A stretch of DNA of 64,000 nt, taken from the NCBI GenBank assembly GCA_040388985.1, contig JAZKAU010000002.1, positions 52,570 to 116,569 on the forward strand, read 5' to 3'. Below the pieces are notes generated by a model. That model did no database searches and was not told the origin of the DNA. It worked only from the letters and a program-made list of their open reading frames with translations. Positions 320-59,362 of the stretch are shown piece by piece (position 1 is the first letter of the stretch; every line of letters starts with the position of its first letter). The DNA is from Patescibacteria group bacterium (GTDB taxonomy: Bacteria; Patescibacteriota; Minisyncoccia; Phycocordibacterales; Phycocordibacteraceae). Position numbers and translations under genes: made by a program.

Positions 320-495
320 AAGCCTTCTGAAATTCCCCGACCTGCTGCGTTGTCGCTATCGTTCAATTCCTCACCGTACTTCAAGTACGACTCGGACTTT
401 CACCACAAGGGTACTTCTTATTTCCTACTTCCTTCGGTCGTGGAAATAAAGTCGCACTCTGCTCCGCCTTGCATCTCGGGTTTTTCAGGAGGCTC
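320..495. mobile_element. MITE-like repeat element copy A (plus orientation), ~175 bp with imperfect terminal inverted repeats
   Basis: 5' end ...GCCTTCTGAAATTCCCCGACCTGCTGCGTTGTCGC and 3' end CCGCCTTGCATCTCGGGTTTTTCAGGAGGCTC. The rc of the 3' end (GAGCCTCCTGAAAAACCCGAG) mirrors the 5' end. Homologous to copies at 44521-44643, 51625-51800 and 59184-59362. Confidence 0.5.
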
Positions 496-534
496 TTAAC
501 CTCCCTCACTGCTGCTATATACTATGTACGTCAT

Positions 535-3318: not shown

Positions 3319-4011
3319 TCACCTCCGGAACGTCAGGACCAAGCCGCCGAGAACTCCGGCCTTCCGTTCGTCGAGGTGATTGAGCGGGATCAGTACTTCG
3401 AATCCGGGCGTGATCGACATTCCCTTCGGGAGCCAGGACGGACTGAGCGTGGCCGACAAAGCTGCGGGGAGGTGCAGCCAGTCCTTGCGACGGTTATAGG
3501 CAAGCTCAGCCGAGAGACGTATCGGCACGCCGTGAACCGATTGCGCGTACGCGCCGCTCAGCCGGAAGATCTGCGTGTCGAGCTTGCCGAAGGTCGCGAG
3601 TTCCTCGAACCGGAAACCGAAATCGAGCGTCTTCCCCGTTCCCAGTCGCTGCGTCCCGCCGATGTCGACGGCGAAGTCGACTGCATCGTTCTTCGGAAGG
3701 AACCAATAGGTGACTTCCGCCCGGCACTTGAGCGTGCCGAAGCAACGCTTCACGATGCCGGGTCCTATGTCGAGTTCAGCATCGTTCGTATCCTTGCCGA
3801 CGGTCGAGAAGAGTCGGATATACGGTCCTGCCTTCTCGGTGACTTGGCCGGTCATGACGAGGACCGGATTCTCGGAGACGACCTTACCGCCGCCCGGACG
3901 GATATTCTCCGACTTCACTCCTGCGCTTACGACCGTAGTCGTCTGCGCCGCTACTGGTATGGCGATTATGGTGAAAGGTGCTGCGAACAGCACGAAAGAA
4001 CGAAAAGACAT
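3319..4011 (-). CDS. hypothetical secreted protein, possibly beta-barrel (MipA/OmpW-like pattern)
   Basis: Signal peptide MSFRSFVLFAAPFTIIAIPVAAQ. Alternating hydrophobic strands (VTYWFLP, LDFGFRFEEL, IRLSAELAYN). No confident family. Confidence 0.45.
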   Translation of the reverse strand: MSFRSFVLFAAPFTIIAIPVAAQTTTVVSAGVKSENIRPGGGKVVSENPVLVMTGQVTEKAGPYIRLFSTVGKDTNDAELDIGPGIVKRCFGTLKCRAEVTYWFLPKNDAVDFAVDIGGTQRLGTGKTLDFGFRFEELATFGKLDTQIFRLSGAYAQSVHGVPIRLSAELAYNRRKDWLHLPAALSATLSPSWLPKGMSITPGFEVLIPLNHLDERKAGVLGGLVLTFRR

Positions 4012-4038
4012 CGTTACATCTCCTTGAGGAAACCAGAT

Positions 4039-4067
4039 TTGACAGTATCAGTACTTTGTTTTAATGT
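4039..4067 (+). promoter_or_regulatory. candidate sigma70-type promoter for TrmB-like gene at 4110
   Basis: TTGACA (4039-4044), 17-bp spacer, TAATGT (4062-4067). Followed by operator-like inverted repeat TGTCGTCGAAAACCGACAAAT (4073-4093). Confidence 0.35.
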
Positions 4068-4109
4068 AAATCTGTCGTCGAAAACCGACAAATCTGTTAC
4101 TATCACCCC

Positions 4110-4916
4110 ATGCTAAGCGACCTATTCAAAGAACTGGGGCTTTCCGAAAGTGCTCACCGCATATATCTCTGGCTGCTTGAAAATGGCACGTCCACGGCTC
4201 GCACGCTTGCCGAGAACCTTGGTCTTCCCCGCCCTTCCGTATATGACCATCTGAACGCGCTCATCCAGAAGGGTCTCGTGCTCGAGCGCGAGGAAGGCCA
4301 TACGAAAACGTTCCAGATAGACGACGTGAAGAATCTTCCGCGACTTCTCGAGGAACGCATGGACGCACTTAGCGAAGAGAAAGCTGCGCTCGAGGTCCTC
4401 CTCCCGCAACTGCAGAAGCAGACCGCATCGGTCGAACCGAAGATACGCTTCTTTTCCGGAGCAGAAGGCGTACGCCAGGTGCTGAATGACATCATGTGGT
4501 ACGAGAATATCGAGACGATGAGCATGTGGCCCATTCGTGAGATGGTCGATCTCCTTGGAAAGGAGTATTTCGAAAAATTAAATCGCAAGCGCATCCCGCG
4601 CGGCATCTTCATACGAGCCGTCTGGCCGGAGAACAAGCGTGTTCCCTTCAAGGACTATCCGTTTCTGGGCACCGGAACCGGCCACTTGCGTGATCTTCGC
4701 ATCGGCCCTAAGGGTATGAGCTTTGATATGGGGTACTGGATATACGCCGACAAGGTCGCCTTCCTGTCGTCGCGCAAAGAGACATTCGGCTTCACTATTC
4801 ATAGCAAGGACTTCGCGGTGATGCTGAAGTCGCAATTCGAGGTCGTATGGGCTGCGTCAAAGCCGGTTAAGCCTGAGCCGCAGCATACCGACGCCTTTCT
4901 CGAGACGGTCAGATAG
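4110..4916 (+). CDS. TrmB-family HTH transcriptional regulator (paralog 1 of 9)
   Basis: N-terminal LGLSESAHRIYLWLLENGTSTARTLAENLGLPRPSVYDHLNALIQKGLV is a TrmB-type winged HTH. C-terminal domain is shared with 8 other ORFs in the window (e.g. conserved ...FEVVWAAS tail). Confidence 0.7.
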   Translation: MLSDLFKELGLSESAHRIYLWLLENGTSTARTLAENLGLPRPSVYDHLNALIQKGLVLEREEGHTKTFQIDDVKNLPRLLEERMDALSEEKAALEVLLPQLQKQTASVEPKIRFFSGAEGVRQVLNDIMWYENIETMSMWPIREMVDLLGKEYFEKLNRKRIPRGIFIRAVWPENKRVPFKDYPFLGTGTGHLRDLRIGPKGMSFDMGYWIYADKVAFLSSRKETFGFTIHSKDFAVMLKSQFEVVWAASKPVKPEPQHTDAFLETVR

Positions 4917-4924
4917 ATTTATCT

Positions 4925-4999
4925 TGGGGCGGCTAGAGAGAATCGAACTCTCGATGCGAGTACCACAAACTCGAGTTTTACCACTAAACTATAGCCGCC
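4925..4999 (-). tRNA. tRNA-His (GTG)
   Basis: Hand-folded cloverleaf. G-1 then acceptor GCGGCTA/TAGCCGC, anticodon stem CGAGT/ACTCG, loop TTGTGGT (anticodon GTG), T-arm GAGAG-TTCGATT-CTCTC, discriminator C, encoded CCA. Confidence 0.85.
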
Positions 5000-5478
5000 A
5001 TGAATGTTTTCCGCTCGCCCTCGTAATGGTGTACCAGAAAATGGCAGTTATGACAAAGCCACGCCAGATTTTCAAGCTTATTATTCTTACGATTCTTGTC
5101 GATATGATGCACCGCGAGTATGCGTTTATCTATAGTTTTACAAAGTCCACACACTTGAGGGAGGTTTGCTCGATTCATGACAGCACGATAGCTACTTTGT
5201 CCGGTCGTAAAATTTTTGTGCCTTTCTGCGACGTATAGTTGGTTTCTCCAACATGTCTGGCAGCTCTTGCTGCAGAAGAACTTCCCGCTCTTGGAACGTC
5301 TAAGATCCTTATTTTGCTTATATGAAATCCTCCCGCATATATCACAGGGCATATTCTTTCCCGTGGGTCTTGCTGTCTTATAACAGGCTACGCTGCAATA
5401 CTTTCCGTTACCCTGCTTAAGTGCAGAAGGCTTGCTGTAAAAGCTAGTCGTGCACACATTACAGGGAACGATCGGCAT
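4984..5478 (-). CDS. HNH endonuclease with N-terminal Cys-rich zinc-ribbon repeats
   Basis: Several CxxC pairs (CNVC, CSVAC, CDIC, CSKSC) then HNH motif HHIDKNRKNNKLENLAWLCHNCH. Last 5 codons (MAAIV-stop) overlap the 5' end of tRNA-His. Confidence 0.8.
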   Translation of the reverse strand: MPIVPCNVCTTSFYSKPSALKQGNGKYCSVACYKTARPTGKNMPCDICGRISYKQNKDLRRSKSGKFFCSKSCQTCWRNQLYVAERHKNFTTGQSSYRAVMNRANLPQVCGLCKTIDKRILAVHHIDKNRKNNKLENLAWLCHNCHFLVHHYEGERKTFMAAIV

Positions 5479-5589
5479 GCAAACAGTATGTCTTTCTTCT
5501 TCGAGTCTTGTGGAGTAAACCGACTGTGGATATATCCAGAATCCTTTATCTTTTCTTCATTTTACCTGGGTGACTCATATTCGACTCCT

Positions 5590-5700
5590 CTCCTGGGCTA
5601 CACCGAGGGCTTTCTCCTTACAGGAGCTGTATACCTTTGGGGTTTTCTCACCGAATAGAAATTCGGCTCATAAACATCGCAAAGGTCTTCAAGTCCTCTC
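5590..5700. repeat. R-element copy 1: ~110-bp repeat containing antisense pseudo-tRNA-Leu 3' fragment
   Basis: ~90% identical to 7770-7880. Plus strand carries CGCAAAGGTCTTCAAGTCCTCTCCCGTGCTACC, resembling the 3' half of tRNA-Leu (GCAAGGCGTGGAGGTTCAAGTCCTCTCCTGGGCACC) but on the opposite strand to the adjacent real tRNA. Contains hairpins CTCCTTACAGGAG and CCGAATAGAAATTCGG. Confidence 0.5.
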
Positions 5701-5718
5701 CCGTGCTACCAAGCGATA

Positions 5719-5746
5719 CGACCCCGATGCTTTCGCATCGGGGTCG
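5719..5746 (-). terminator. hairpin 3' of tRNA-Leu(GAG)
   Basis: CGACCCCGATGC-TTTC-GCATCGGGGTCG is a 12-bp stem immediately downstream of the tRNA 3' end. Weak U-tract. Confidence 0.4.
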
Positions 5747-5753
5747 TTCGCCT

Positions 5754-5838
5754 TGGTGCCCAGGAGAGGACTTGAACCTCCACGCCTTGCGGCACATCCA
5801 CCTCAAGGATGCTTGTCTACCAATTTCAACACCTGGGC
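5754..5838 (-). tRNA. tRNA-Leu (GAG)
   Basis: Type II tRNA. Acceptor GCCCAGG/CCTGGGC, anticodon stem CATCC/GGATG, loop TTGAGGT (GAG), long variable arm, T-arm GGAGG-TTCAAGT-CCTCT, encoded CCA. Confidence 0.85.
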
Positions 5839-5939
5839 CTGGTGTGCTCGTGCAGAGACTTGCCCACTATACGAAAGATATAGCTAAAAAGAAAGAGCCG
5901 CCCATAGGGCGGCTCTTTCTTTTTTCAAAATCTCTATCC

Positions 5940-6509
5940 TTAGCCTTCTTTCTCTTCGGTCGGAACTTCTTCAGGAGCGGGAGCAGCAGGTGCGGGTTCG
6001 TCGACTACGGAAGCTTCCGGAGCGCCAGCGACTTCTTCTGCAGGAGTCATATCGGTTCCGTCAGGATTCTGCGCAGGATCGACTGCCTGTACGTCTTCGA
6101 CGCTTACTTCAGGAGCCTCAACTATCTCCGCCTCTTTGAAGTCATCGGTGGAGATCTTCACGAGACGCATGTTGCGAAGCTGGCGACGTACCTCACGGGC
6201 CACCTTCTCGCGGATGAAGTAGAGCTTCGCGCGACGGACCTTCGAGCGGCGAGTGATCTCGATCTTCTCGATGAATGGCGCATACAGCGGGAAAATACGC
6301 TCGACGCCGATGCCTGACATAGTGGCGCGTACGGTGAAGGTCGCTCCGGCTTCGGTGCCGTGCTTTACCGCAAGCACGAGGCCCTCGAAATTCTGGATAC
6401 GAGTCTTTCCTTTCTCGACGATCTTCTGGTGGACACGTACGGTGTCGCCTGGGCGGATGCCAAGCTTCGAGCGCTCCTCCGTCTTAACCGGGGTGATTAC
6501 TGAATGCAT
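5940..6509 (-). CDS. rplS: 50S ribosomal protein L19 with acidic C-terminal extension
   Basis: [48 protein letters not shown]... is the classic L19. C-terminal ~70 aa is an acidic/Pro-rich tail. Start set to ATG (rc of 6507-6509). Confidence 0.85.
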
Positions 6510-6559
6510 AGTGGTGAAAACTGTACCATGGCGTACTGTACGAAGCAAATATAAGGATG

Positions 6560-7297
6560 TTAGGCCTTCTGCAGGCCAGCGGTTTCGGGAAACTTCGCGA
6601 TGGCAGAGGACCATTCAGCGGGTATGGGGGCTATGACGACCTTGGTGCCTCCTGACAGGAGCGAGAACTCCAGCTGATAGGCATGGAGGCCGAGGCGCTT
6701 AAGACCCAGGTCGCAGGGGTGATTAGGCGCGTAGAGCGCATCGCAGACGATGGGGTGATGGATGGCCTTGAGGTGTACGCGTATCTGATGGGTGCGTCCG
6801 GTTTCTGGCATGAGCTTCACGAGCGAGTGCGTACCGATGTCGCTCACGACCTCGTATCGAGTGATAGCCTCGCGCATCTGTCCCTTGGCTTTAGGCTGCG
6901 CGGAGCGCAGCCTAAAATCCTTCCGTGAGCGTCCGATGGCGAAGTCGATCACTCCTTTAGGTTCTTTCAGTACGCCGTATACGAAGGCGATGTAGGTCTT
7001 GCGTACCTCGTGTTCCTGGAAGGCCTTCTTGAGGAAGGCGTGCGCCTCTGGCGTCTTCGCAAGCACGAGGACGCCTGATGTATCGCGATCAAGCCTGTGC
7101 ACGATGCCCGAGCGGGTGATCTCCGTTCCGTCAGTAAGTCGTTGCGTTTCGCCTACTTCTCGGGAATCAGGGTAGCGCGCGGCGAACCAGTCGCTGACCG
7201 TCTCATCCTTAGTGTGGCCGTCCGGATGCGTCATCACGCCTGCCGGCTTGTTTATGGCGACCATATCGTCGTCTTCGTAGAGGATGGGGATGTCCAT
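6560..7297 (-). CDS. RluA-family pseudouridine synthase
   Basis: [14 protein letters not shown] and catalytic [16 protein letters not shown] motifs. Confidence 0.85.
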
Positions 7298-7394
7298 TAC
7301 CTACAGCCTAGCGCGCATGGAGCCCGGCCGCTAGCGGCCGGGCTCCTCCTTCAAAGATTTTGTGAAATGCGGTATGGTTGGAAAGTCCGATAAC

Positions 7395-7468
<74 letters not shown>

Positions 7469-7472
7469 CTAA

Positions 7473-7512
7473 AGTAAAACGAGCCGGATTCCTTCCGGCT
7501 CGTTTTACTTTG
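7473..7512 (+). terminator. rho-independent terminator after tRNA-Val
   Basis: AGTAAAACGAGCCGGA-loop-TCCGGCTCGTTTTACT followed by TTTG. Confidence 0.6.
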
Positions 7513-7559
7513 TATGGATAGAGACGGAGGATTCGAAAGCCGCAGGCGCGCGACCAGAA

Positions 7560-7720
7560 TTTCTTGAGCGAAGCGATTAGAAATTCGAAGTGCCCTTGTG
7601 GTGAAGCCCTTTCGAGTCCGCGAGGGCTGTTGCCGACGCGGGCGTAGATTTTGTTACGAGCTTGCGAGTTAGAAAATCAAGTGCAGAGCTTCGAGAGTGC
7701 GTGACAGAATCCGAATACTT
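7560..7720. repeat. degenerate tandem repeat related to the internal segment of MITE copies B/C
   Basis: GAATTTCTTGAGCGAAGCGATTAGAAATTCGAAGTGCCC and GATTTTGTTACGAGCTTGCGAGTTAGAAAATCAAGTGCAG resemble TAATTTCTTACGAGTAATCGAGTTAGAAATTAGGAAGTGCCC of copy B. No TIRs. Confidence 0.3.
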
Positions 7721-7769
7721 GGAGGAGTATGTCCGCAACTCGTGACCGAATCCGACTCCTTCATTTGTG

Positions 7770-7880
7770 CCCGGGAGGACTTTCTCCTTACAGGAGCTGT
7801 ACACCTTTGCGGTTTTCTCGCCGAATAGGAATTCGGCTCACAAACATCGCAAAGGTCTTCAAGTCCTCTCTCGCAAAGCG
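7770..7880. repeat. R-element copy 2 (antisense pseudo-tRNA-Leu 3' fragment repeat)
   Basis: CTTTCTCCTTACAGGAGCTGTACACCTTTGCGGTTTTCTCGCCGAATAGGAATTCGGCTCACAAACATCGCAAAGGTCTTCAAGTCCTCTC is ~90% identical to 5590-5700. Confidence 0.5.
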
Positions 7881-7895
7881 CGCAGGCGCTTCACT

Positions 7896-7945
7896 CCGGG
7901 CACAAATGAAAAAGCGCTTGTGAGCGCTTTTTCATTTGTGCCCGG
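7896..7945 (-). terminator. 22-bp perfect inverted repeat / terminator overlapping 3' end of tRNA-Leu(CAG)
   Basis: CCGGGCACAAATGAAAAAGCGC-TTGTGA-GCGCTTTTTCATTTGTGCCCGG. Core GCGC...GCGC hairpin plus U-run downstream of the tRNA on the minus strand. Confidence 0.5.
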
Positions 7946-8022
7946 GAGAGGACTTGAACCTCCACGCCCTTGCGAGCTCTACGACCTGAACGTAGCGTGT
8001 CTACCAATTTCACCACCCGGGC
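7939..8022 (-). tRNA. tRNA-Leu (CAG)
   Basis: Type II tRNA. Acceptor GCCCGGG/CCCGGGC, anticodon stem CTACG/CGTAG, loop TTCAGGT (CAG), T-arm GGAGG-TTCAAGT-CCTCT. CCA not encoded. Confidence 0.85.
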
Positions 8023-8058
8023 CTGCGGTGCACTATACCAGATACGTTGCGCGAAACG

Positions 8059-8790
8059 TCAGAGCGCGACTCCCGTAAATACCTTCTCGAGCGTACCTTT
8101 CGCGACCAGCTCCTCCGGAGAGCCCTGCGCGACTACCTTCCCCTTGTCAAGTATATAGCCGCGCGTGGCGATAGTGAGGAGCGACTTGATATTGTGTTCC
8201 ACCACGACGATGGATGTCCTGCGCTTCTCGTTTATATCCTTCACGAAGGCGAATATCTCTTTCACGACCTTGGGAGCCAGCCCGAGCGACGGCTCGTCGA
8301 GCAAGAGCACTTTGGGATCGGTCATGAGTCCGCGCGCAATGGCGAGCATCTGTTGTTGTCCGCCTGAGAGCGTGCCTGACTTCGCGCCGCGCTTCTCCTT
8401 GAGTACGGGGAAGAGTTCGTAGAGATCGCGTATGCGTTCCTTCACGAGCTGCGGGCTTTTGATCCTGAAACCGCCAATCTCGAGATTCTCCTCGACCGTA
8501 AGATCAGCGAAGACGCGACGACCCTGCGGGACGAAGGCTATGCCGCGCTCAACTACCTCGTGCGAGACCGGCGTGAACTTTTGCCCTTCCCAGGACACCG
8601 TGCCTGAAAGAATGGGAGCGAGTCCGAACAGAGCTTTGAGTATCGTCGACTTCCCTGCGCCATTGGGCCCCATCAGGGCAACTACTTCGCCCTCGTCGAG
8701 ATTCACGGACGCGCCGTCGAGCGCTTTCACGCCGCCATAGTGGACGTGGATATCATGCAGCGACAACAATGGTTCCTTGAGTTCTTTCAT
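8059..8790 (-). CDS. livF: branched-chain amino acid ABC transporter ATP-binding protein LivF-like
   Basis: Walker A GPNGAGKST, signature LSGGQQQ, Walker B LLLDEP. Typical LivF length. Confidence 0.85.
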   Translation of the reverse strand: MKELKEPLLSLHDIHVHYGGVKALDGASVNLDEGEVVALMGPNGAGKSTILKALFGLAPILSGTVSWEGQKFTPVSHEVVERGIAFVPQGRRVFADLTVEENLEIGGFRIKSPQLVKERIRDLYELFPVLKEKRGAKSGTLSGGQQQMLAIARGLMTDPKVLLLDEPSLGLAPKVVKEIFAFVKDINEKRRTSIVVVEHNIKSLLTIATRGYILDKGKVVAQGSPEELVAKGTLEKVFTGVAL

Positions 8791-9521
8791 ACGCCTAAGT
8801 ATGCCTCGATCACTGCCGCGTCACTCAGTACGTCCTGCGGCGTGCCTTCCGTAAGGAGCTTACCCGTATCCATCACGATGACGTGATCGCAGAGTTCGCG
8901 GATGAGCGCCATGTCATGCTCGATGAGCACGATGGTCTTCCCCTGCTCTCGCAGCTCTTTCATGATTCCCGATACGAGCTTCACCATCTCCGGAAAGAGC
9001 CCCGCATAGGGCTCGTCGAAGAGGACGATGTCGGCGCCTGTGGCGAGCGCCCGCGCGATTTCAAGGAGTTTACGCTGACCATAGGACAGCTCCGCCGCAT
9101 TCGCGCTCCGCTTCTCCCAGAGTCCTACGCGCTCGAGCACTGTTCGCGCGCGCTCGATATGCGCGCCGCTCGGTCGTTCGAAGAGCGAACCGAGGATGCT
9201 CCGGCGCGTGAGCGCAATGATGATATTATCGAGCACCGTCATCTGTTCGAATATGCGCACATTCTGGAAGGTGCGGGTGATGCCCAGCTTGAAGACTTCG
9301 TAAGGGCGTATGCGAGACCGTTCCTTCCCTCCTTCAACTACTACGATTCCCCCATCCATCCTATGGATACCGGTGAGAACGTTAGTGAGCGTAGTCTTCC
9401 CCGAGCCGTTTGGCCCTATCACGCCCGTTATCTTCCCTTTAGGAATAGAGATGGAAAGCCCGTTCACGGCTTTCACGCCGCCGAATACTTTAGCCAGGTT
9501 CTTTGTCTCTAGCGCAGCCAT
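8787..9521 (-). CDS. livG: branched-chain amino acid ABC transporter ATP-binding protein LivG-like
   Basis: GPNGSGKTT, LSYGQRKLLEIARAL, LFDEP. Overlaps livF by 4 bp (operon). Confidence 0.85.
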   Translation of the reverse strand: MAALETKNLAKVFGGVKAVNGLSISIPKGKITGVIGPNGSGKTTLTNVLTGIHRMDGGIVVVEGGKERSRIRPYEVFKLGITRTFQNVRIFEQMTVLDNIIIALTRRSILGSLFERPSGAHIERARTVLERVGLWEKRSANAAELSYGQRKLLEIARALATGADIVLFDEPYAGLFPEMVKLVSGIMKELREQGKTIVLIEHDMALIRELCDHVIVMDTGKLLTEGTPQDVLSDAAVIEAYLGV

Positions 9522-44398: not shown

Positions 44399-44520
44399 TC
44401 TGACTTCCAATCCTGTGTTGGAGTGTTGAGAAATTGTCGGTGAACTCGCGAACACCTGAAAATAATACTACTCTAAATCTGCTGTTTTGTCAATAGGTCC
44501 GCAGCGTCCCAGTATCTTGA

Positions 44521-44643
44521 GAGGTTTCTGAAAAACCCGATATGCAAGGCGCTGAGGAGTGAAAGACCGAGTCGTACTCAGGCGTACGGTGAGGTCTTGA
44601 GCGACGAGAGTAACGCAGCAGATCGGGGAATTTCAGGAAGCTC
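44521..44643. mobile_element. MITE-like element copy D (minus orientation, short 123-bp variant of copy A)
   Basis: rc reads GAGCTTCCTGAAATTCCCCGATCTGCTGCGTT...AGTACGACTCGGTCTTTCAC...CGCCTTGCATATCGGGTTTTTCAGAAACCTC. Both TIRs present. Confidence 0.5.
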
Positions 44644-51624: not shown

Positions 51625-51800
51625 AGCTTCCTGAAATTCCCCGGTCTGCTGTGTTGTCGCTGCTTCGAAATTCTCACGTACGCCCCTAATTTCTTACGAG
51701 TAATCGAGTTAGAAATTAGGAAGTGCCCTTGGGGTGCGCCTTAGTACGCCTGGGAATTTCTCATTGCTCCGCCTTGCATCTCGGGTTTTTCAGAAACCTC
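51625..51800. mobile_element. MITE-like element copy B (plus orientation)
   Basis: 5' TIR GAGCTTCCTGAAATTCCCCGG; 3' end CTCGGGTTTTTCAGAAACCTC (rc GAGGTTTCTGAAAAACCCGAG; 15/21 identical to the 5' TIR). Internal segment is shared with inverted copy C. Confidence 0.55.
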
Positions 51801-59183: not shown

Positions 59184-59362
59184 AAGCCTGTTGAAAAACC
59201 CGAGATGCAAGGCGGAGCAATGAGAAATTCCCAGGCGTACTAAGGCGCACCCCAAGGGCACTTCCTAATTTCTAACTCGATTACTCGTAAGAAATTAGGG
59301 GCGTACGTGAGAATTTCGAAGCAGCGACAACACAGCAGGTCGGGGAATTTCAGCAGGCTTAG
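59184..59362. mobile_element. MITE-like element copy C (minus orientation; inverted relative to copy B)
   Basis: Plus strand reads ...CTGTTGAAAAACCCGAGATGCAAGGCGGAGCAATGAGAAATTCCCAGGCGTACTAAGGCGCACCCCAAGGGCACTTCCTAATTTCTAACTCGATTACTCGTAAGAAATTAGGGGCGTACGTGAGAATTTCGAAGCAGCGACAACACAGCAGGTCGGGGAATTTCAGCAGGCTT, the reverse complement of copy B. Confidence 0.55.

What the first reader, a model, noticed from the sequence alone, without database searches (positions are those of the whole stretch)
5590..5838. Duplicated ~110-bp element carrying an antisense pseudo-tRNA-Leu 3' fragment, downstream of both tRNA-Leu genes
After each tRNA-Leu (GAG at 5754-5838; CAG at 7939-8022) and its terminator lies a ~90% identical repeat: 5590-5700 and 7770-7880. 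Its plus strand contains CGCAAAGGTCTTCAAGTCCTCTCCCG, which mirrors the T-arm and acceptor 3' half of tRNA-Leu but on the opposite strand, so tRNA and repeat form a long-range inverted repeat (TTCAAGTCCTCTCC). The repeat has its own hairpins. It may be a relic of tRNA-targeted integration or duplication, or a small antisense RNA able to pair with the tRNA-Leu 3' half.
Basis: seen in the sequence. Interest (0 to 1): 0.5.

Follow-up and report, generated by a model that had tools for sequence, protein, structure and literature searches.

The report
Structured mini-insertions behind tRNA genes
The duplicated ~100-base element behind both tRNA-Leu genes is real and belongs to an undescribed family of gene-less, tightly folded insertions that sit at the 3' ends of tRNA-Leu, -His and -Val genes in one lineage of ultra-small (Patescibacteria) bacteria, each carrying a direct and an inverted copy of the tRNA's own tail.

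Summary
Window 5605-5703 and 7775-7873 are 93% identical over 99 nt, and they are the only two copies in 64 kb. Each copy starts, on the tRNA strand, with an inverted copy of the tRNA-Leu T-loop/T-stem/acceptor 3' segment.

It is not an isolated scar. A covariance model finds the same fold behind tRNA-Leu(GAG) or tRNA-His in three distant metagenomic relatives. The fold is a three-way junction with conserved UUGAAG and GUACWG joiners and a UGUAA loop. 91% of cells pair and 17 of 31 pairs show compensatory changes.

A second, commoner "long" core occupies the same position behind tRNA-Leu, -His and -Val genes (about 24 copies). One expanded copy lies at window 7523-7765. Its strong copies show 21 of 30 compensatory pairs and an invariant G·U.

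The common layout is: tRNA 3' end (S), hairpin, inverted copy (A), folded core, second direct copy (S'). Empty sites, tandem arrays and patchy distribution point to small ORF-less insertion modules. The core probably acts as an RNA made on the tRNA strand. How the modules move and what they do are inferred, not shown. Neither core matches any Rfam 15 family.

The parts
5754..5838 (-). tRNA-Leu (GAG). Its last 23 nt, from the T loop to CCA, form segment S of unit 1.
   Evidence: ARAGORN; Rfam tRNA, 47.8 bits.
5708..5757 (-). Hairpin with 23-nt arms (83% complementary) and a GAAA loop. It starts inside the tRNA's ACCA end and has no T run after it.
   Evidence: I4; sequence read.
5688..5716 (-). 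Segment A of unit 1. This is the inverted copy of the tRNA-Leu 3' end, from T54 through the acceptor and CCA into the trailer.
   Evidence: I1, 29 nt at 79% against 5748-5776; I8, 19 nt at 95% against tRNA-Leu(CAG)..
5600..5702 (-). Short-type core, copy 1: P1, UUGAAG, long P2 hairpin, GUACAG, P3 with a UGUAA loop. It is partly degenerate, with an A·C mismatch in P1 and a C·C mismatch in P2. Its own S' is reduced to GCCCTC.
   Evidence: Model R1, 93.9 bits, E = 5e-25; repeat D1; fold z = -2.6.
5568..5604 (+). Remnant of the 3' end of a long-type element in the opposite orientation (GGGTGAC..TTCGACTCCTCTCCTGGGCTACACC). It abuts copy 1 tail to tail, and the same junction occurs at copy 2.
   Evidence: D9, I10, D10. 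Comparison with 7732-7759 is by eye, so this is an inference.
7938..8022 (-). tRNA-Leu (CAG). Positions 7931-7958 hold segment S of unit 2 plus 8 nt of trailer.
   Evidence: ARAGORN; Rfam, 52.1 bits.
7896..7945 (.). Perfect 23-bp palindrome with a 4-nt loop that includes the tRNA acceptor 3' strand. Its centre, AAAAAGCGCT-CACA-AGCGCTTTTT, looks like a two-way terminator.
   Evidence: I2.
7858..7910 (-). Segment A of unit 2. The inverted copy of all 28 nt of S lies at 7896-7910 and 7858-7870. It is interrupted by a 25-nt hairpin at 7871-7895 that sits where a D arm would.
   Evidence: I14, I15; fold. The same hairpin sequence occurs in L030.
7770..7873 (-). Short-type core, copy 2, the better preserved copy.
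   Evidence: Model R1, 105.6 bits, E = 2e-28. Fold of 7762-7904: -73.1 kcal/mol, z = -8.6 on the - strand, against -64.5 on the + strand.
7760..7780 (-). Segment S' of unit 2: a second direct copy of the tRNA-Leu(CAG) 3' end plus the trailer CAAATGAA, with a 2-nt deletion. It forms the 3' arm of P1 and of the outer acceptor-like stem.
   Evidence: D12: 18-nt perfect repeat, 7760-7777 and 7931-7948.
7523..7765 (+). Expanded long-type element behind tRNA-Val. It begins with an inverted copy of the tRNA-Val T arm (GACGGAGGATTCGAA) and ends ..CCGCAACTCGTGACC + GAATCC.. It converges on copy 2.
   Evidence: I17: 15 nt, 93%; nhmmer against L013 and L051 (E = 1e-3 to 1e-7). The compact model R2 does not reach it.
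7395..7511 (+). tRNA-Val (TAC), 7395-7469, and its 18-bp perfect terminator hairpin, 7471-7511.
   Evidence: I6.

Best explanation
The repeat is two copies of a roughly 100-nt, ORF-less, folded module that I call the short type. It belongs to a family of small insertion modules found in the 3' part of tRNA-Leu, tRNA-His and tRNA-Val genes in one Patescibacteria lineage.

**Layout, read on the tRNA strand**
- S: the tRNA 3' end, from the T loop to the discriminator, plus the trailer.
- A hairpin or terminator.
- A: an inverted copy of S.
- A core folded as a three-way junction.
- S': a second direct copy of the tRNA 3' end.

A pairs with S' to close the core as helix P1. This gives an end that imitates the stacked acceptor and T stems of the tRNA. 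A also pairs with S across the hairpin.

**Shown here**
- The repeat itself.
- The conserved fold, with compensatory changes.
- The fixed position and orientation behind tRNAs.
- Flanks copied from the local tRNA.
- Empty sites, tandem units and a patchy distribution.

**Inferred**
- The module enters by recombination within the T-loop-to-3'-end segment. It brings a replacement 3' end and terminator and pushes the old 3' end downstream.
- It depends on an enzyme encoded elsewhere.
- The core works as an RNA, or a single strand, of the tRNA sense. It is probably transcribed with or like the tRNA and trimmed by tRNA-processing enzymes.

Copy 1 is a partly degenerate secondary copy of copy 2.
For: **The repeat and its match to the tRNA**
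-.

**Short-type family**
- Model R1 finds 5 copies in 578 kb: window x2, L030, L095 and L051. All lie behind tRNA-Leu or tRNA-His on the tRNA strand.
- 91% of cells pair and 17 of 31 pairs change on both sides. Slid controls give 35-56%.
- The P3 stem reads CUCC/GGAG, GAAUC/GAUUC, GAAAC/GUUUC or UUCC/GGAA under an unchanged UGUAA loop.

**Long-type family**
- 16 strong hits.
- 89.8% of cells pair and 21 of 30 pairs are compensatory. One G·U pair is invariant in 16 of 16.
- Strand bias: 36 G·U against 12 A·C.
- The sense strand folds better in 11 of 11 elements.

**The inverted copy is tied to particular tRNAs**
- It occurs behind Leu-GAG (7 of 34), Leu-CAG (2 of 9), His (4 of 80) and Val-TAC (1 of 14).
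- It occurs behind none of the other tRNA kinds in the same loci.

**Signs of insertion**
- Empty sites in L012, L122 and L124.
- Tandem units in L071, L030, L083 and L051.
- In L071, proximal copies of S carry the element's trailer and only the last copy carries a different one.
- The distal trailer of L015 matches the trailer of the empty site in L012 (score 18 against 11).

**Signs of spread**
- Related cores sit at different tRNAs in close relatives (L032 at Val, L067 at His), each with arms copied from its own tRNA.
- The short type is absent from the four nearest relatives and present in distant ones.

**Strand of copy 2**
- It folds better on the - strand (-73.1 against -64.5 kcal/mol).
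- Relative to the all-Watson-Crick version in L030, two substitutions in its 25-nt hairpin are wobble-compatible only on the - strand.
Against: - No recombinase, integrase or transposase was found near any copy. The constant neighbour is a conserved HNH protein with no shown link.
- I know of no insertion chemistry that makes both a direct and an inverted copy of the target.
- Expression was not tested, and no sigma-70-type promoter was found.
- Terminator-like hairpins lie between the tRNA and the core in most units.
- The strand of the short type is only weakly decided (4 G·U against 3 A·C).
- The short-type alignment has only 5 sequences and is fitted to the model.
- All loci were collected through the HNH gene, so the link to Leu, His and Val tRNAs could partly reflect that neighbourhood.
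- Val-linked copies at the same position in 4 genomes fit vertical descent as well as mobility.
- The trailer comparison is decisive in one pair only.
Confidence: 0.5

Rival explanations
1. Resident tRNA-like non-coding RNA genes rather than mobile DNA. The core plus its acceptor/T-stem-like closing helix would be an old, vertically inherited RNA made next to its cognate tRNA. RNase P and RNase Z would cut it out. It might receive CCA or even an amino acid, and it would act in trans. Its arms would follow the tRNA because of selection or gene conversion, and absences would be losses through S/S' recombination.
For: - Strong covariation, an invariant G·U and a 3:1 G·U strand bias in the long-type core.
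- In copy 2 and in L062, a 9-bp outer stem has the tRNA's own acceptor 3' strand plus the discriminator as its 3' strand. A hairpin sits where the D arm would be.
- S' ends in ..GGGCACCA in L015 and L029.
- Val-linked copies lie at the same position in the window, L015, L031 and L032.
- The L031 and L032 cores are 98% identical, which could reflect strong constraint.
Against: - The element is present or absent among close relatives (L067 against L029 and L032 at tRNA-His).
- Three different core types occupy the same slot.
- Identical tandem units occur in L071.
- The inverted copy includes the non-tRNA trailer and the terminator arm, which an RNA mimic would not need.
- The outer palindrome shows no RNA-type strand bias.
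- ARAGORN and Rfam see no tRNA or tmRNA in these elements.
Confidence: 0.22
2. Inert scars. These would be leftovers of past integrase-mediated insertions, or of palindrome-extending replication errors, at tRNA 3' ends. One scar would have been copied from one tRNA-Leu locus to the other by gene conversion, with no present function.
For: - Direct repeats of the tRNA 3' end (D12).
- Displaced tRNA 3' fragments in L011 and L067.
- The tRNA-Leu(GAG) flank is a variable region, with R-M genes in L011 and extra genes in L122.
- Copy 1 is visibly decaying (z = -2.6; mismatches in P1 and P2).
- S-hairpin-A occurs without any core behind tRNA-Leu in L062.
Against: - The same fold is kept, with compensatory changes and unchanged joiner and loop sequences, in genomes whose HNH proteins are 55-57% identical.
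- The long type has 21 of 30 compensatory pairs and an invariant G·U.
- The core always abuts S' at the same T-loop position (C56).
- Independent deletions of larger islands would not give such regular ends.
Confidence: 0.12
3. A cis-acting antisense element. The inverted segment would be transcribed as part of the tRNA's 3' trailer. It would pair with the tRNA's T arm and acceptor 3' half to control tRNA folding, 3' maturation or termination.
For: - A is complementary to S over 28 of 28 nt at copy 2, and over 29 nt at 79% at copy 1.
- The pairing continues through the trailer and terminator arm, giving hairpins with arms of about 37-42 nt.
- No T run separates tRNA-Leu(GAG) from copy 1.
Against: - A has a conserved alternative partner, S'. 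In helix 1 of the long type, 4 of 7 pairs change on both sides.
- There is no G·U bias in the S:A palindrome.
- The idea does not explain the conserved core or S'.
- Most tRNAs of the same kinds lack the element.
- The cloverleaf would fold before A is transcribed (this last point is an inference).
Confidence: 0.08
4. A small protein gene on the + strand. ORFs 5570-5887 (105 aa) and 7767-8078 (103 aa) run through the repeat and through the antisense of the tRNA-Leu genes.
For: - Both ORFs are open.
- 5 of the 7 differences between the two copies fall on third codon positions of this frame. My count gives a binomial p of about 0.045.
Against: - The equivalent frame in the L030 homologue is closed by a TAA inside P2 (sequence).
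- The ORFs overlap functional tRNA genes in antisense.
- The substitutions are equally well explained by the RNA fold, falling on loop, wobble and joiner positions.
Confidence: 0.02
5. A primer-binding site, as in LTR retroelements. The inverted segment would bind the 3' end of mature tRNA-Leu to prime reverse transcription.
For: It has the position and length of a primer-binding site, with 18-28 nt complementary to the tRNA 3' end.
Against: - At copy 2 the complementarity runs into the genomic trailer (CAAATGAA) and not into CCA, which that gene does not encode.
- No reverse transcriptase lies nearby.
- A published survey reports no group II introns in Patescibacteria (PMC13011429, abstract).
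Confidence: 0.02

Closest known systems
Integration of genetic elements into the 3' part of tRNA genes (attL/attR with T-loop crossover). From general knowledge of tyrosine-integrase att sites in tRNA genes; not tested against a paper here.
   Same: - The inserted DNA carries a replacement for the tRNA 3' end, starting in the T loop.
- The displaced original 3' end lies at the far side in direct orientation.
- Tandem accretion and empty sites occur.
- tRNA-Leu is a common target.
   Different: - The units are only about 150-300 bp and have no integrase or any ORF.
- An extra inverted copy of the att-like segment is always present.
- The cargo is a conserved folded core.
- No integrase was found nearby.
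Folded single-strand recombination sites: integron attC sites and the CTX phage attP(+) hairpin (general knowledge).
   Same: - Imperfect palindromes alternate with cassettes.
- The stem of the hairpin (S:A) rebuilds a duplex that looks like the target site.
- The units are ORF-less and depend on an enzyme encoded elsewhere.
   Different: - No R''/R' core-site consensus is present.
- No IntI or Xer link is shown.
- The target is a tRNA gene.
- The cargo is one of a few conserved structured cores rather than arbitrary genes.
- The palindrome shows no strand bias.
Bacterial MITE / REP / ERIC-type structured intergenic repeats.
   Same: - Small and gene-less.
- Terminal inverted repeats (P1).
- Strong secondary structure.
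- Several copies per genome, with nested modules. The window also holds a separate ~170-nt family at 51625-51792 and 59192-59359.
   Different: - The arms are copied from the local target rather than being constant.
- The elements are almost exclusive to the 3' ends of three tRNA kinds and share the tRNA's orientation.
- Interior conservation, with an invariant G·U and compensatory changes across distant genomes, is at the level of a functional RNA.
tRNA-like RNAs that use tRNA-processing enzymes: the tmRNA tRNA-like domain, bacterial Y RNAs (YrlA; PMC4201824, listed), and viral 3' tRNA-like structures.
   Same: - The 5' and 3' ends pair into an acceptor-like stem whose 3' strand plus discriminator equal those of a real tRNA.
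- A hairpin sits at the D-arm position in copy 2, L062, L059 and L051.
   Different: - There is no T arm, no anticodon arm and no tag reading frame.
- ARAGORN and Rfam do not detect them.
- The helix continues through T-loop sequence as a plain duplex.

Membership tests
tRNA / tRNA pseudogene | Cloverleaf with D, anticodon and T arms, detectable by ARAGORN or Rfam RF00005 | tested here: not met
   There is no tRNA call on either strand at 5590-5716 or 7760-7910. Rfam at E<=10 gives nothing there. Only the T-loop-to-3'-end segment is present.
tmRNA (one- or two-piece) | tRNA-like domain with a T arm and a G·U acceptor pair, plus a tag reading frame | tested here: not met
   ARAGORN finds no tmRNA in the window or in the loci scanned with the tool (L011-L013, L015, L106-L124). 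The local ARAGORN run over the other loci was tRNA-only. Rfam finds none at E<=10 or at E<=1 in six loci.
Any described RNA family (Rfam 15) | A covariance-model match at or near the gathering score | tested here: not met
   Nothing overlaps any short-type or long-type copy, even at E<=1 to 10.
Integrase att scar at a tRNA gene | Direct repeat of the tRNA 3' segment flanking the inserted DNA | tested here: met
   18-nt perfect repeat at 7760-7777 and 7931-7948 (D12). S' equals the tRNA 3' end over 18-21 nt in L030, L062, L071 and L083.
Integrase att scar at a tRNA gene | An integrase gene, or its remains, inside or next to the insert | tested here: not met
   The ORFs listed at window 3500-9500 look like a TrmB-type regulator, HNH, L19, RluA and ABC ATPases; the first four were run through Pfam, the ATPases were judged by eye. 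The units have no ORF. The rest of the window was not screened.
MITE | Constant terminal inverted repeats and a fixed-length target-site duplication | tested here: not met
   The arms differ with the local tRNA (Leu, His, Val, and the end of rplK). The direct repeat varies from about 7 to over 25 nt.
MITE | Many dispersed copies, and a related autonomous element with a transposase | tested here: inconclusive
   There are 2 short-type copies and 1 long-type copy in 64 kb. No autonomous relative was seen. The whole genome is not available here.
Integron attC | R''/L''-L'/R' palindrome with RYYYAAC / GTTRRRY core sites, and IntI | tested here: not met
   The ends of the palindrome are TTCRANTCC / GGANTYGAA. 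IntI was not searched for.
Retroelement primer-binding site | Complementarity to the mature tRNA 3' end including CCA, and a reverse transcriptase | tested here: not met
   At copy 2 the complementarity follows the genomic trailer rather than CCA. No RT lies nearby.
Structured non-coding RNA (generic) | Conserved secondary structure supported by compensatory changes, with strand-specific G·U pairs | tested here: met
   Short type. Long type. Caveat: the alignments are fitted to the models, and n = 5 for the short type.
Structured non-coding RNA (generic) | Transcription of the element | not testable with these tools
   No expression data are available. The consensus promoter scan found nothing.

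The most novel reading that the evidence does not exclude
These are a new class of ORF-less, RNA-structured cassettes that move among tRNA genes by a target-templated route. Each insertion rebuilds both a direct and an inverted copy of the tRNA's T-loop-to-3'-end segment. The folded single strand then presents a duplex imitation of its own target, in the manner of attC or the CTX phage hairpin, or alternatively a tRNA acceptor mimic handled by tRNA enzymes. This would be a way of choosing and copying an insertion site not described for any bacterial element.
Probability: 0.2. Interest if true: 0.85.

Novelty: new variant of a known kind. Interest (0 to 1): 0.62.

Why it matters
- Patescibacteria have tiny genomes and few recognised mobile elements or regulatory RNAs.
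- A family of conserved, gene-less, tightly folded modules tied to tRNA 3' ends is one of two things. It is either an unrecognised kind of small mobile element, or a new tRNA-mimicking RNA class.
- If mobile, the way it copies its target in both orientations is unexplained.
- Either answer would add to what is known about how tRNA genes serve as landing sites, and about how these organisms use RNA.
- In practice, these modules break assemblies at tRNA loci. The Logan contigs of this same organism end at the repeat. They can also be mistaken for terminators or pseudo-tRNAs.

Tried and rejected
- **Genome-collection scan.** An exact 20-mer scan of 185,579 species genomes gave 8 hits, all chance matches inside coding genes such as recQ.
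- **Viral-contig scans.** Five patterns gave nothing or chance coding hits. One prophage family shares an 18-mer by chance. None of the pattern hits from the long-type scan matched model R2.
- **Rfam.** Scans at gathering and E-value thresholds found only tRNAs.
- **tmRNA, RNase P, group I intron and small self-cleaving ribozymes.** I compared consensus features by eye. I found no CUGANGA/GAAA hammerhead core, no tag frame and no P4-type motif. These comparisons are from memory and are leads, not tests.
- **+ strand ORF.** Rejected because of a stop codon in the L030 homologue.
- **Primer-binding-site idea.** Rejected because the complementarity follows the trailer.
- **Model R2 on the window.** With filters off, the compact model did not recover the expanded window copy at 7523-7765. 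Its assignment rests on nhmmer and shared blocks.
- **Trailer comparison.** Meant to identify the native terminator, it was informative in only one pair, L015 and L012.
- **T-stem specificity.** T-stem sequences of occupied tRNAs differ, so there is no simple sequence specificity.
- **Promoter and terminator scan.** Uninformative.
- **Literature.** Four searches found no description of these elements. The nearest paper concerns group I introns in Patescibacteria tRNA anticodon loops (PMC13011429), which is a different thing.
- **HNH neighbour.** Only a generic HNH domain was recognised, with weak best matches to the IscB and YajD HNH domains.
Full report
**1. The observation**

Window 5605-5703 and 7775-7873 are 93% identical over 99 nt (D1). 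Local blastn gives E = 1e-36 and no third copy in the 64 kb. Both copies lie just downstream of a tRNA-Leu gene on the - strand. These are GAG at 5754-5838 and CAG at 7938-8022.

The 13-mer TTCAAGTCCTCTC occurs four times: twice in the tRNAs on the - strand and twice in the repeats on the + strand. Chance expectation is 0.05.

- At copy 1, arm 5688-5716 is complementary to 5748-5776 over 29 nt at 79% (I1).
- At copy 2, the inverted copy covers all 28 nt from T54 to 8 nt beyond the tRNA. It lies at 7858-7870 and 7896-7910 and is interrupted by a 25-nt hairpin.

Neither strand gives a tRNA, tmRNA or any Rfam family, even at E<=10.

**2. Anatomy, read on the tRNA (-) strand**

Unit 2 is the better preserved. 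Its parts, in order, are:
- The tRNA-Leu(CAG) 3' end, S.
- A perfect 23-bp hairpin at 7896-7945. It already includes the acceptor 3' strand and has a terminator-like centre.
- The inverted copy, A.
- The core: helix P1 (GAGGAC/GUCCUC), joiner UUGAAG, a long hairpin P2 with an internal loop, joiner GUACAG, and a short hairpin P3 with a UGUAA loop.
- A second direct copy of the tRNA 3' end plus 8 nt of trailer, S' (7760-7780). The 18-nt perfect repeat is 7760-7777 and 7931-7948 (D12).

The 143-nt stretch 7762-7904 folds on the - strand into an acceptor-like 9-bp outer stem, a hairpin at the D-arm position, and the three-way junction. Its energy is -73.1 kcal/mol with z = -8.6. The + strand gives -64.5 kcal/mol.

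Unit 1 has the same core with two disrupting substitutions and z = -2.6. It has a hairpin without a T run, and its S' is cut down to six bases.

In both units the core abuts, tail to tail, the 3' end of a different element lying on the + strand. That element is complete at 7523-7765, behind tRNA-Val. Only a remnant survives at 5568-5604.

**3. Host and neighbourhood**

The ORF at 4984-5478 (-) is a 164-aa zinc-ribbon plus HNH protein. It has more than 1,200 homologues, and the few that carry source names are annotated Patescibacteria or Nomurabacteria.

The gene order RluA, L19, tRNA-Leu(GAG), HNH, tRNA-His, MscL is conserved in relatives. I used this gene as an anchor to collect 80 metagenomic loci and a few more by exact-protein look-up.

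**4. Relatives of the short element**

A covariance model built from four sequences (R1) finds five copies in 578 kb:
- The two window copies.
- L030 4078-4177, 104 bits.
- L095 3569-3654, 68 bits.
- L051 1428-1523, 40.5 bits.

All five lie behind tRNA-Leu(GAG), tRNA-Leu(CAG) or tRNA-His, on the tRNA strand. On this alignment 91% of cells pair and 17 of 31 pairs change on both sides. Slid controls give 35-56%. The joiners and the UGUAA loop are unchanged while the P3 stem changes completely. The HNH proteins of these genomes are only 55-57% identical to the window's.

The four nearest relatives (L011, L012, L122, L124; 69-73% identity) have no copy.

**5. A second, commoner core in the same slot**

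Relatives L013 and L015 carry a different, longer interior behind tRNA-Leu(GAG). Searching by nhmmer and then with model R2 gives about 24 copies:
- 9 behind tRNA-His.
- 9 behind tRNA-Leu.
- 4 behind tRNA-Val(TAC).
- 1 with no tRNA upstream but a Leu-like ..CCUGGGCACCA at its 3' end (L029 197-284).
- 1 between rplK and rplA (L029 7235-7302).

Wherever a tRNA is present, the element has the tRNA's orientation.

The core is again a three-way junction. It has conserved GAA-RGCC-GGA..GA-GGC-GGGG-UCG..UAU-N-CGUGACC blocks. On the 16 strong hits:
- 89.8% of cells pair, against 37-42% in slid controls.
- 21 of 30 pairs are compensatory.
- One G·U pair is invariant in 16 of 16.
- G·U pairs on the tRNA-sense strand outnumber A·C by 36 to 12.
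- The sense strand folds better in 11 of 11 elements.

The core therefore folds as a single strand of the tRNA sense, most simply as RNA.

The window's copy behind tRNA-Val (7523-7765) is an expanded version. It starts with an inverted copy of the tRNA-Val T arm (15 nt, one mismatch, I17). It shares the blocks TCGAAAGCCGNAGGCG and TCCGCAACTCGTGACCGA with L013. The compact model R2 does not reach it.

A third core type follows a second tRNA-His in L060.

**6. The common layout**

In every tRNA-linked unit the order is S, hairpin, A, core, S'.
- A always ends in the complement of the T loop (..GGANTYGAA).
- S' always starts at about C56.
- The arms are copies of the local tRNA, whatever its sequence.

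An inverted copy of at least 13 nt lies behind 7 of 34 Leu-GAG, 2 of 9 Leu-CAG, 4 of 80 His and 1 of 14 Val-TAC genes. It lies behind none of the roughly 60 other tRNAs in the same loci.

Units occur in tandem:
- Two identical 205-nt units (start-to-start spacing) behind tRNA-His in L071.
- A short unit followed by a long unit in L030 and in L051.
- Two long units in L083.

In L071 the proximal copies of S carry the element's trailer, and only the last copy carries a different one. In L015 the trailer after S' matches the trailer of the empty site in L012. That is a single informative case.

In L030 the outermost S is the most decayed. The outer S:A palindrome shows no G·U strand bias (27 against 21), unlike the core.

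**7. Interpretation**

The data fit small ORF-less modules inserted in the T-loop-to-3'-end part of tRNA genes. Each module supplies a replacement 3' end and hairpin, an inverted copy of that end, and a folded core. The old 3' end is left downstream.

Several observations suggest movement or frequent gain and loss:
- Related cores sit at different tRNAs in close relatives. L032 has one at Val and L067 at His, with HNH proteins 88% identical. Their P3 stems differ only by one compensatory flip, and each core has arms from its own tRNA.
- The L031 and L032 cores are 98% identical while their HNH proteins are 68% identical.
- The short type has a patchy distribution.

Orthologous Val-linked copies, however, also allow vertical descent.

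I cannot name a known chemistry that produces both a direct and an inverted copy of the target. No recombinase was found. Expression is untested. The mechanism is therefore an inference. The rival reading, a resident tRNA-acceptor-mimicking RNA gene, remains serious.

**8. Readings rejected**

- Inert scar: rejected on the covariation.
- + strand protein: 5 of 7 differences between the copies are at third codon positions, but a stop codon closes the frame in the L030 homologue.
- Primer-binding site for mature tRNA: the complementarity follows the trailer, not CCA.
- tmRNA or tRNA pseudogene: no detection by any tool.

**9. Novelty**

No Rfam 15 family matches either core. Four literature searches found no description. 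The parts resemble known things: att duplications at tRNA genes, hairpin recombination sites, MITE-like repeats and tRNA mimics. The combination does not match any of them. I rate it a new variant of a known kind, with a one-in-five chance of being something more unusual.

Noticed in passing
window 4984-5478 (-) and tRNA-His 4925-4998 (-): A 164-aa zinc-ribbon plus HNH protein is highly conserved, with more than 1,200 homologues; the 120 listed are 55-73% identical. It lies directly upstream of a tRNA-His in every locus inspected in detail. Across the 85 sources ARAGORN finds 84 tRNA-His genes. Its last four codons and stop lie inside the tRNA-His 5' end, encoding the conserved C-terminus FMAAxV*. 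The HNH domain is weakly nearest to those of IscB and YajD.
   Followed up: partly
window 51625-51792 (+), 59192-59359 (-), 44520-44643 (-), 321-496 (+): A second family of structured repeats, about 170 nt long, has inverted-repeat-like ends (CTGAAATTCCCCGG.. / ..CTCGGGTTTTTCAG). The two best copies are 97.6% identical, inverted, and bracket the PBP-dnaN-dnaA-yidC region. The family shares a 49-nt hairpin module (..GAAGTGCCCTTGKGGTG) with window 7558-7603, inside the tRNA-Val-linked element.
   Followed up: partly
window 7523-7765 (+): An expanded long-type element lies behind tRNA-Val. It begins with an inverted copy of the tRNA-Val T arm and converges head-on with short-type copy 2. If both are transcribed, their transcripts would overlap in antisense between two two-way terminators (7471-7511 and 7896-7945).
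   Followed up: partly
L029 7235-7302: A long-type core lies between rplK (L11) and rplA rather than behind a tRNA. Its closing arms ACGTCAA/TTGACGT repeat the palindromic end of rplK (TTGACGTCAA). The insertion appears to have rebuilt the last codons of the gene.
   Followed up: partly
L011 4640-5010: In the relative closest to the window by HNH identity (73%), restriction-modification genes (N6_N4_Mtase, Z1) occupy the place of tRNA-Leu(GAG). They leave a tRNA 3' remnant plus a hairpin very like window 5708-5757. This flank is an insertion hot spot.
   Followed up: no
L060 8319-8440: A third core type lies behind a second tRNA-His, 3 kb from the HNH gene. It has the same inverted-copy, core, direct-copy layout and a GAGCGATAGCGA loop.
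   Followed up: no
L067 520-760: Between the functional tRNA-His and the element lies a displaced T arm plus acceptor of a different tRNA-His variant. The element's arms copy that displaced fragment and not the working tRNA.
   Followed up: no
window 7565-7580; also L059, L030, L051, L069 P3 tips: The loop motif GAGCGAAGCGA recurs at hairpin tips in several element types. It contains GCGAAGC, which I recall as an unusually stable mini-hairpin in single-stranded DNA.
   Followed up: no
window 5570-5887 (+) and 7767-8078 (+): Two open frames of 105 and 103 aa run through the repeats and through the antisense of the tRNA-Leu genes. 5 of the 7 differences between the repeat copies are at third codon positions of this frame. 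The frame is closed in the L030 homologue.
   Followed up: yes
L009, L010 (Logan assemblies of the same organism): Short-read contigs of this organism end at the tRNA-Leu / repeat region. The repeat therefore breaks assemblies.
   Followed up: no
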